Origin: Eledone cirrhosa
Lineage: Eukaryota
Length of the DNA: 64,000 nucleotides
Reading direction: 5' to 3'
Assembly: GCA_964016885.1 (NCBI GenBank)
Contig: OZ024742.1
Coordinates: forward strand, 149,420,001 to 149,484,000
Positions 12,557 through 13,171 of the stretch are shown here, one piece after another (the first letter of the stretch is position 1; each line of letters starts with the position of its first letter). Made by a program: the position numbers and the translations under genes. A model generated the notes under the pieces. That model saw nothing but the letters and a program-made list of their open reading frames with translations. It made no database searches and was not told the origin of the DNA.

Positions 12557-12766
12557 ATAGGAACCAGTAAGACCCCGACGGCTGAGCTCAAGCCGTTTCG
12601 ACGGCTAATTCTGGACTAAAAATGTCCAGAATTAGCCGTCGAAACGGCTTGAGCTCAGCCGTCGGGGTCTTACTGGTTCCTATTACCCACTCTACTACCC
12701 TAAGTATTGAGTACTTTGGTGCGTTATGGTCCACCTGGTTCCTTACCACATTTCCCTCGTTCTCGT
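12557..12766 (+). mobile_element. Short hairpin-ended element in (TA)n carrying the 3' half of a hammerhead (copy 1)
   Basis: Perfect 60-bp-arm palindrome 12557-12683 (loop TAAAAAT). Contains GAAA-CGGCU(UGAGCUC)AGCCG-UC. Shares the tail TATTACCCACTCTACT...CTTACCACA with the copies at 12987 and 56858. Confidence 0.8.
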
Positions 12767-12986
12767 TATATATATATATATATATATATATATATATATA
12801 TATATATATATATATATATATATATATATATATATATATATATATATATATATATATATATATATATATATATATATATATACACACACACATATACGTA
12901 TGTATGCAAAACGTAAACAGAAATAAAAATGCAAACGACACAGTACAATGAAAAAATATTAGTTTGTATATATATATGTATGAACA

Positions 12987-13171
12987 GATTCAGGACTCCG
13001 ATGGCTGAGCTCCGGCCGTTTCGACACCTAGATCCGATTCTAGCTATCGAAACGGCCGGAGCTCAGCCGTCGGGGTCCTGACTCTTTTCATATTACCCAC
13101 TCTACTGCCCTAAGTATCGAGTACTCTGGTGCGTTATGGTCCACCTGGTATCTTACCACACCCTCTTTGTT
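12987..13171 (+). mobile_element. Hairpin-ended hammerhead-half element, copy 2 (subfamily variant)
   Basis: Palindrome 12987-13084 with an imperfect centre, GAAA-CGGC...GCCG-UC, the same 3' tail as copy 1, and TA-rich flanks. Confidence 0.75.

What the first reader, a model, noticed from the sequence alone, without database searches (positions are those of the whole stretch)
12557..13171. Hairpin family whose fold-back centre is the ribozyme's own stem II
Seen: three elements of about 200 bp (12557, 12987, 56858) keep only the 3' half of an HHR (GAAA-CGGC..GCCG-UC|GGGGUC). In place of CUGANGA they carry an inverted copy of the downstream sequence. The hairpin centre differs in each copy (TAAAAAT loop, TCTGG loop, imperfect stem) but always falls just 5' of GAAA, i.e. 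in stem/loop II. A copy-specific variant (ACAAG/CTTGT in copy 3 versus ACCAG/CTGGT in copy 1) is present in both arms. Inference: the hairpin forms anew at each insertion when reverse transcription stalls in the ribozyme and the cDNA self-primes on stem II. This would be a concrete mechanism for PLE-type inverted tails that also destroys the ribozyme.
Basis: partly seen in the sequence, partly recalled or inferred. Interest (0 to 1): 0.72.

Follow-up and report, generated by a model that had tools for sequence, protein, structure and literature searches.

The report
Penelope stubs marking RNA start inside ribozyme
These ~200-base hairpins are three of at least 18,700 short head-to-head insertions of a Penelope-like jumping gene, and their inner ends pile up at one spot inside its self-cutting RNA motif, likely because two separately primed DNA copies ran off the start of the element's RNA and were joined, not because one copy folded back on the motif's stem.

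Summary
The three hairpins are real. They are stubs of a Hydra-type Penelope-like retrotransposon (3.5-kb unit, RT plus GIY-YIG, (TA)n targets), with at least 18,727 such hairpins genome-wide. Parents exist, but their core is UUGANAA (U3-A8), not CUGANGA (0 of 71). Self-priming on stem II is not supported: its predicted junction matches once genome-wide, and in 16 of 78 hairpins the inverted arm reaches at least 15 nt further than the arm it would copy. Arms cross stems I-III at background rates, then 58 of 71 stop within 14 nt of an initiator-like site in loop II, 18 nt before GAAA. A smaller pile-up sits exactly at the ribozyme cut (25 of 51 solo copies). Best reading: both target strands prime at two fixed RNA sites, run off the RNA 5' end (likely the transcription start) and are end-joined. 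The start is inferred: no RNA data, cap-G test inconclusive, no TATA in one subfamily, and full-length copies mostly pass the site (8 of 50 stop). The layout is known; this scan noted the same reading before in this and other genomes.

The parts
12538..12559 (.). (TA)n target, left flank of copy 1
12560..12620 (-). Copy 1 tailless arm: element positions +58 back to about -3 (+1 = A of the initiator-like AGT in loop II)
   Evidence: parent sequence
12621..12623 (.). Junction filler, not matching the parent
12624..12680 (+). Copy 1 tail-bearing arm, +2 to +58: 3' strand of stem II, GAAA (12641-12644), stem III, predicted cut 12663|12664, 3' strand of stem I
12681..12760 (+). 80-nt tail (+59 to +138) between the two fixed outer ends; in full elements it continues into the 5' UTR (ATG at +232)
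12761..12766 (+). 6-nt duplication of the tail end, likely re-priming slippage
   Evidence: similar in L022 and L023
12767..12881 (.). (TA)n target, right flank of copy 1
12981..13037 (-). Copy 2 (diverged subfamily E) tailless arm, +58 to +4
13039..13170 (+). Copy 2 tail-bearing arm from +9 (GAAA at 13049-13052)
56859..56994 (-). Copy 3 tail-bearing arm, +3 to +138
56994..57043 (+). Copy 3 tailless arm, +9 to +58, 1-nt overlap with the other arm

Best explanation
The hairpins are short insertions of a Penelope-like retrotransposon with Hydra-clade motifs, each likely made when the two cut strands of a (TA)n target primed two separate cDNAs that ran off the RNA's 5' end, likely a transcription start inside loop II of the hammerhead, and were then joined head to head. 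Shown: two fixed outer ends (+58 and +138), each followed by TAT in the element; inner ends piled at +1; varied junctions with microhomology, templated filler or poly(A); a smaller pile at the ribozyme cut (G42). Inferred: two priming events (by analogy with the two start sites and two-strand extension shown in vitro for another PLE); that +1 is an RNA end and a capped start; end-joining by host repair; and that the rarer long and tandem copies, which mostly read through +1, come from a second template class (circular or read-through RNA).
For: Parent element: RT, linker, GIY-YIG, 3' UTR, hammerhead, tail, ORF start. Fixed end: 67 of 78 short inverted arms end at +58 plus TAT, none at the later TAT sites in the tail (counted by eye). 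Wall: in 100 position-ordered tail copies, 58 of 71 arms that reach +8 end by -6 (0.058 per nt) against 0.004-0.006 across stems I, III and II and 0.003 beyond; 61 of 62 short inverted arms do the same. Same position in subfamily E, whose loop II sequence differs. +1 fits YYANWYY in 5 of 5 parents tested, one of only 2-5 matches in each region scanned. Two independent cDNAs: inverted arm at least 15 nt longer in 16 of 78; short arm stops at +1 to +3 while the long arm stops at +58, +80 or +119 (L328, L293, L294); tailless arm about 1.45 kb against a tail arm about 0.9 kb in L033. RT stops at RNA ends: 25 of 51 solo copies starting between +37 and +46 start at G42 (by eye; binomial p 2e-12). 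Solo copies joined straight to (TA)n at -4 to +1: 553 reverse-strand matches. Same-orientation jumps from +1 to other RNA positions (L103, L262, L329). Two RT start sites flanking the tail and extension of both target strands in vitro: PMC11167929.
Against: No RNA evidence for a start at +1. The cap signature is inconclusive: untemplated G in 17 of 81 solo +1 copies against 12 of 86 control copies starting at +4 to +7 (by eye; Fisher p 0.31). The TATA-like box near -30 in subfamilies A-D is absent in E, and E has a second stop near -8 to -13. Arms share haplotype in 72 of 88 hairpins (17.5% expected at random), which a fold-back also predicts. Subfamilies A, C and D have a predicted weak hairpin whose base lies at about +5 to +7. 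Stem III is skipped in 5 of 100 copies, so structure does affect RT sometimes. Part of the G42 tally could be CpG decay of C41 or joining favoured by GGGG.
Confidence: 0.65

Rival explanations
1. Two primed cDNAs as above, but the pile-up at +1 is an RT stall at structure in loop II (apical hairpin or tertiary contact) of a longer uncut RNA.
For: Predicted apical hairpin base at about +5 to +7 in subfamilies A, C, D; no TATA in E; cap-G test inconclusive; stem III skips in 5 of 100.
Against: Much stronger stems are crossed at background rate; subfamily B has no stable hairpin there and in E +1 lies in a bulge, yet the stop is at the same place; the same sequence stops only 8 of 50 long cDNAs.
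Confidence: 0.12
2. One cDNA runs to the RNA end, snaps back by microhomology in loop II, copies itself, and switches to the target at the TAT at +59 (self-priming, but not on stem II).
For: 72 of 88 hairpins have identical arm haplotypes; short overlaps at junctions; first TAT after +1 is at +59 in subfamilies A-C; self-priming proposed in PMC3846280 (passages).
Against: The tailless arm is longer in 16 of 78 and shares nothing with the tail arm in L158 and L197; L033, L293, L294, L328; no arms end at later TAT sites; L161 arms differ by two known haplotypes (3 sites).
Confidence: 0.11
3. The RNA end at +1 is real but made by processing (nuclease cut in loop II or a 3' splice site at YAG) rather than by transcription initiation.
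For: YAG spans -1 to +2 in nearly all parents; the Penelope intron ends at the hammerhead in D. virilis (PMC4209133).
Against: Arms keep the AG and show no constant upstream exon; E has no pyrimidine tract before it.
Confidence: 0.07
4. One reading: RT stalls in the ribozyme and the cDNA self-primes on stem II.
For: 61 of 78 centres lie 5' of GAAA; stem II is real, with 3 pairs changed on both sides.
Against: Predicted junction (inverted arm joined through the stem II 5' strand into loop II): 1 match genome-wide for subfamilies A-D against 18,727 hairpins, and that locus has no short inverted arm; the 5' strand of stem II is almost never copied.
Confidence: 0.03
5. A MITE-like hairpin amplified as DNA from a few master copies.
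For: Very high copy number and short uniform size.
Against: Junctions vary widely within each haplotype; continuous range of arm lengths up to full elements.
Confidence: 0.02

Closest known systems
Hydra clade of C-terminal EN+ Penelope-like elements (Craig et al. 2021, PMC8557442; passages, section 11, one supplement searched)
   Same: C-terminal GIY-YIG, DKT, CxCX5C linker, CxxC and CxH motifs, (TA)n targets, hammerhead in the pLTR.
   Different: RWR rather than RWK; unit about 3.5 kb (most reported under 3 kb); U3-A8 or C3-A8 core with a long stem II; tens of thousands of stubs. No tree was built.
Canonical PLE insertion layout: inverted 5'-truncated pLTR plus one-sided tail (PMC3846280 passages; PMC8557442 passages)
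   Same: Head-to-head arms, tail on one arm, partial tandems; TATA- and Inr-like motifs noted in the Pen2a_Av pLTR.
   Different: Tail is 80 nt, not 30-40. Those papers ascribe the junction to self-priming on an antisense template and the tail to EN resolution; here the ends favour two primed cDNAs running off an RNA end.
Poseidon PAc of Anolis (Frangieh et al. 2024, PMC11167929; parts 1-2 of 4 read, all of the main text)
   Same: Two internal RT start sites flanking the tail near the 5' end of the RNA; both target strands cut and extended; AT-rich targets.
   Different: That paper reports no homology between primer and start site and no RNA-seq reads at the ribozyme cut; here both sites are followed by TAT and genomic copies pile up at the cut. 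It does not address the inverted junction in the parts read.
[quoted passage not shown]
   Same: U3-A8 core, long helix II, G10.1-C11.1, palindromic helix III, opposite-strand pairs of motifs, circular-template proposal for tandems.
   Different: Full helix III and a ~36-nt loop II holding the inferred RNA start; most genomic copies here hold only the 3' half.
L1 twin priming and retroviral strong-stop DNA (recalled, no call)
   Same: Two primed cDNAs joined by microhomology give an inversion; a short cDNA runs off the RNA 5' end.
   Different: Both priming sites are fixed and internal near the RNA 5' end, and the product inserts as a hairpin instead of transferring.

Membership tests
EN+ Penelope-like element | Single ORF with RT and C-terminal GIY-YIG | tested here: met
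   RT motifs (FDIES 25 of 29, YRDD 23 of 26) followed by NVIYQC...YIGLT. Pfam gave no hit for two ORF pieces, so the call rests on motifs read by eye.
EN+ Penelope-like element | pLTR-ORF-pLTR partial tandems, inverted truncated copy, one-sided tail | tested here: met
Hydra clade | DKG changed to DKT | tested here: met
   29 of 29
Hydra clade | CxCX5C linker | tested here: met
   Commonest form among 18 copies (8 in the five most frequent variants); others have the last Cys mutated
Hydra clade | CxxC and CxH around the conserved E and N | tested here: met
   25 of 25 and 36 of 36
Hydra clade | N-terminal RWK motif | tested here: inconclusive
   RWR in 43 of 44: similar, not identical
Hydra clade | Insertion into (TA)n | tested here: met
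Hydra clade | Placement in the RT phylogeny; absence of CCHH | not tested
   No reference set aligned; no tree built
Type I hammerhead (parent) | Three helices around the core, with covariation | tested here: met
   93% of 300 cells paired, 3 pairs changed on both sides, all in stem II and tied to the E versus A-D split (structure drawn by hand from these sequences)
Type I hammerhead (parent) | Canonical CUGANGA core | tested here: not met
   0 of 71; U3-A8 in 57, C3-A8 mismatch in 12; Rfam gives no match on a parent
Type I hammerhead (parent) | Self-cleavage after GUC | not testable with these tools
   Indirect only: 25 of 51 solo copies start at G42
Pol II core promoter in loop II | Initiator consensus at +1 | tested here: met
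   5 of 5 parents; consensus recalled
Pol II core promoter in loop II | TATA-like box near -30 | tested here: inconclusive
   AT-rich box in A-D, absent in E
Pol II core promoter in loop II | Cap-templated extra G | tested here: inconclusive
   17 of 81 versus 12 of 86, p 0.31
Non-LTR retrozyme | Tandem units each with a whole hammerhead | tested here: not met
   The hairpins are single insertions with half a motif; only L329 fits

The most novel reading that the evidence does not exclude
The element starts its RNA inside loop II on purpose: the 5' end carries only the substrate half of the hammerhead and the 3' pLTR supplies the catalytic half, so the ribozyme forms only when the two ends of one full-length RNA pair. 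That cut at C41|G42 removes the cap and lets the unit-length RNA close into a circle, the template for the 3.5-kb tandems, while uncut linear RNAs give the tens of thousands of twin strong-stop hairpins. The two halves are predicted to co-fold through stems I and II.
Probability: 0.2. Interest if true: 0.75.

Novelty: new variant of a known kind. Interest (0 to 1): 0.5.

Why it matters
How Penelope-like elements make their inverted copies, tails and tandems is an open question, and whether their hammerheads cut in cells is unsettled. This family gives a base-level record from tens of thousands of insertions. It argues against the published self-priming idea, ties the in vitro two-start-site result to the genomic hairpin, points to an RNA start inside the ribozyme, and gives genomic evidence that a U3-A8 hammerhead cuts in vivo. 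Each step has a direct test (CAGE, two-piece ribozyme assay, two-strand TPRT). If +1 is only a stall site, the finding reduces to an abundant example of a known layout.

Tried and rejected
Rfam: no hammerhead among the 150 best of 303 window matches listed, none on a parent locus. Pfam: no hit for two ORF pieces. Sequencing runs: no RNA holder listed, so no reads were laid. The protein atlas gave no result. Cap-G test inconclusive; its control may include a minor start at +6. A first consensus fold used mis-set coordinates and was discarded. Two breakpoint mappers each failed on some rows: the gapped one over-extended, the ungapped one broke in the variable stem I loop; one search merged them, taking the gapped value for 11 tail arms and for one inverted arm (L121). 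The TATA-plus-initiator idea was weakened when subfamily E showed no TATA. My first clade guess (Neptune/Nematis) was dropped for Hydra after a lead and the test. Literature searches for Penelope with twin priming (3 papers, listing only, none on PLE mechanism by title), strong-stop (1 unrelated), split I/II hammerheads and initiator plus hammerhead (passages not relevant) found no statement of this model; the library lacks most subscription papers.

Full report
Observation. The three elements are at 12560-12766, 12981-13170 and 56859-57043, each inside (TA)n. Each has a short tailless arm, a junction, and a longer arm carrying GAAA, stem III, GUC|GGGGUC and an 80-nt tail. The genome (3.0 Gb) holds 32,886 exact matches to a 28-mer of the motif, 35,401 to a tail 32-mer and 18,727 hairpins with a 5-65-nt spacer; all reversed-pattern controls were 0. 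The 'copy-specific' variants are subfamily haplotypes.

Parent. Unfolded copies lead upstream through a ~1.1-kb 3' UTR to GIY-YIG and RT domains. The tail continues into a 5' UTR with the ATG at +232; 305 exact tail-to-UTR junctions exist, some in head-to-tail runs spaced 3.53-3.54 kb. Motif counts fit the Hydra clade as defined in PMC8557442 section 11; no tree was built. The parent hammerhead has stems I-III (93% of cells paired, 3 pairs changed on both sides) but a UUGANAA core: 0 of 71 have CUGANGA, 57 have U3-A8, 12 have C3-A8. U3-A8 is reported for Schistosoma PLEs (PMC4209133). I number from +1, the A 18 nt 5' of GAAA; the predicted cut is C41|G42.

Self-priming on stem II needs the cDNA to copy all of loop II and the 5' strand of stem II, leaving the inverted arm joined through that strand. 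This junction has 1 match genome-wide (pattern covers subfamilies A-D), and that locus has no short inverted arm. In 100 tail copies taken in positional order on contig 1, 78 have a short inverted arm. Tail arms end at 0.004-0.006 per nt across stems I, III and II, at 0.058 per nt from +8 to -6 (58 of 71) and at 0.003 beyond. Short inverted arms behave alike (61 of 62), though only arms next to the junction were counted. End positions are uncertain by a few bases because of microhomology; 12 values were taken from the gapped mapper (see Tried and rejected), and one of the 100 (L153) is really a 5' pLTR.

Two cDNAs. The tailless arm ends at +58 plus TAT in 67 of 78 (by eye) and the tail arm at +138, also before TAT. 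In 16 of 78 the tailless arm reaches at least 15 nt further 5' than the tail arm, against 3 the other way; in L158 and L197 the arms share no sequence. Long elements show the same independence (L033; L293, L294, L328). Junctions hold microhomology, templated filler or poly(A). This fits two cDNAs joined end to end and matches the two start sites and two-strand extension shown in vitro for PAc (PMC11167929). Arms share haplotype in 72 of 88, so both usually come from one RNA or one source locus; a fold-back predicts this too. L161 has arms of two haplotypes.

What +1 is. The same stop occurs in subfamily E (copy 2), whose loop II differs in sequence and predicted fold. +1 fits an initiator consensus in 5 of 5 parents (consensus recalled). 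Solo copies joined to (TA)n at -4 to +1 number 553 on the reverse strand. Solo copies starting between +37 and +46 start at G42 in 25 of 51 (tallied by eye from 67 distinct places among the first 100 of 129 rows, 16 hairpin stubs set aside; p 2e-12). So this RT leaves a sharp mark at a predicted RNA end, and the ribozyme likely cuts in vivo. +1 starts outnumber +37 to +46 starts (553 versus 43 reverse-strand matches, patterns not identical in subfamily scope), as expected if most RNAs begin inside the ribozyme and cannot cut themselves there. Jumps from +1 to other RNA positions (L103, L262, L329) also fit an end.

Against. No RNA run is listed. The extra-G test is inconclusive (17 of 81 versus 12 of 86). 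E has no TATA-like box and a second stop near -8 to -13. On the second pass, in 70 of the 305 junction copies, 20 end 3' of +8, 8 of the remaining 50 stop at +1 and 42 pass (7 of 45 after collapsing arrays; the test used a partly collapsed 7 of 48). The stop is still enriched there (0.011 per nt against 0.001-0.003) but leaky, so a second, endless template class is needed: circles, as proposed in PMC4209133, or read-through RNA. A weak hairpin near +5 in some subfamilies and stem III skips in 5 of 100 keep a stall model alive.

Most novel reading. A start in loop II splits the hammerhead into a substrate half at the RNA's 5' end and a catalytic half in the 3' pLTR. The halves are predicted to co-fold through stems I and II. 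Two-piece hammerheads split at loop II are recalled from the in vitro literature; search found none. End pairing would give decapping and circularisation. This is untested.

What is known. The inverted-arm-plus-tail layout, TATA/Inr-like pLTR motifs and a self-priming proposal are in PMC3846280 (passages) and PMC8557442 (passages). The retrozyme link is in bioRxiv 10.64898/2026.07.22.740005 (part 1 of 5 read). Searches found no paper stating twin run-off at a start inside the ribozyme; the library is incomplete. Earlier notes of this scan reach the same reading in this and other genomes. My reading was noted before I saw them; they are unreviewed and are not counted as support. Verdict: real feature, first mechanism wrong in its key step, a new variant of a known kind with a testable mechanism.

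Noticed in passing
window 59049-59490: Another head-to-head element in (TA)n (inverted match 59130-59493, 96%) with a complete CUGAAGA...GAAA motif on both arms (59387+, 59236-) and a one-sided extension of about 80 nt; probably a different PLE family whose arms stop well 5' of the motif.
   Followed up: partly
window 61712-63001: Palindrome with 596-nt arms (97%) carrying a CUGAUGA...GAAA motif at 62846+ and 61867-.
   Followed up: partly
L329 (G000:C2:356029500-356031500): Five 299-bp tandem units, each with a whole U3-A8 hammerhead, tail and ORF start; loop II is deleted from about -21 to -1, with the join at +1. Looks like a nascent retrozyme derived from this element.
   Followed up: partly
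L262/L263 (G000:C1:27009500-27010300): Three 257-bp tandem units that each begin at the +1 region and hold only the 3' half of the hammerhead, capped by an inverted arm.
   Followed up: partly
L103: Arm ending at +1 joined in the same orientation to 3' UTR sequence about 700 nt upstream, suggesting a template jump.
   Followed up: no
L045, L195, L239, L279, L280: Subfamilies with a C3-A8 mismatched core (12 of 71 parents); copies of the matching haplotype still start at G42.
   Followed up: partly
L117, L120, L182, L192, L193: Stem III and GAAA deleted between two short direct repeats in one arm only, suggesting RT skipping the hairpin.
   Followed up: partly
L230-L259: Subfamily E has a second cluster of 5' ends near -8 to -13 (about 20 of 30 loci chosen for extending past +1, by eye).
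   Followed up: no
L016, L043, L191: Poly(A) runs of 14-22 nt fill the junction between the arms.
   Followed up: no
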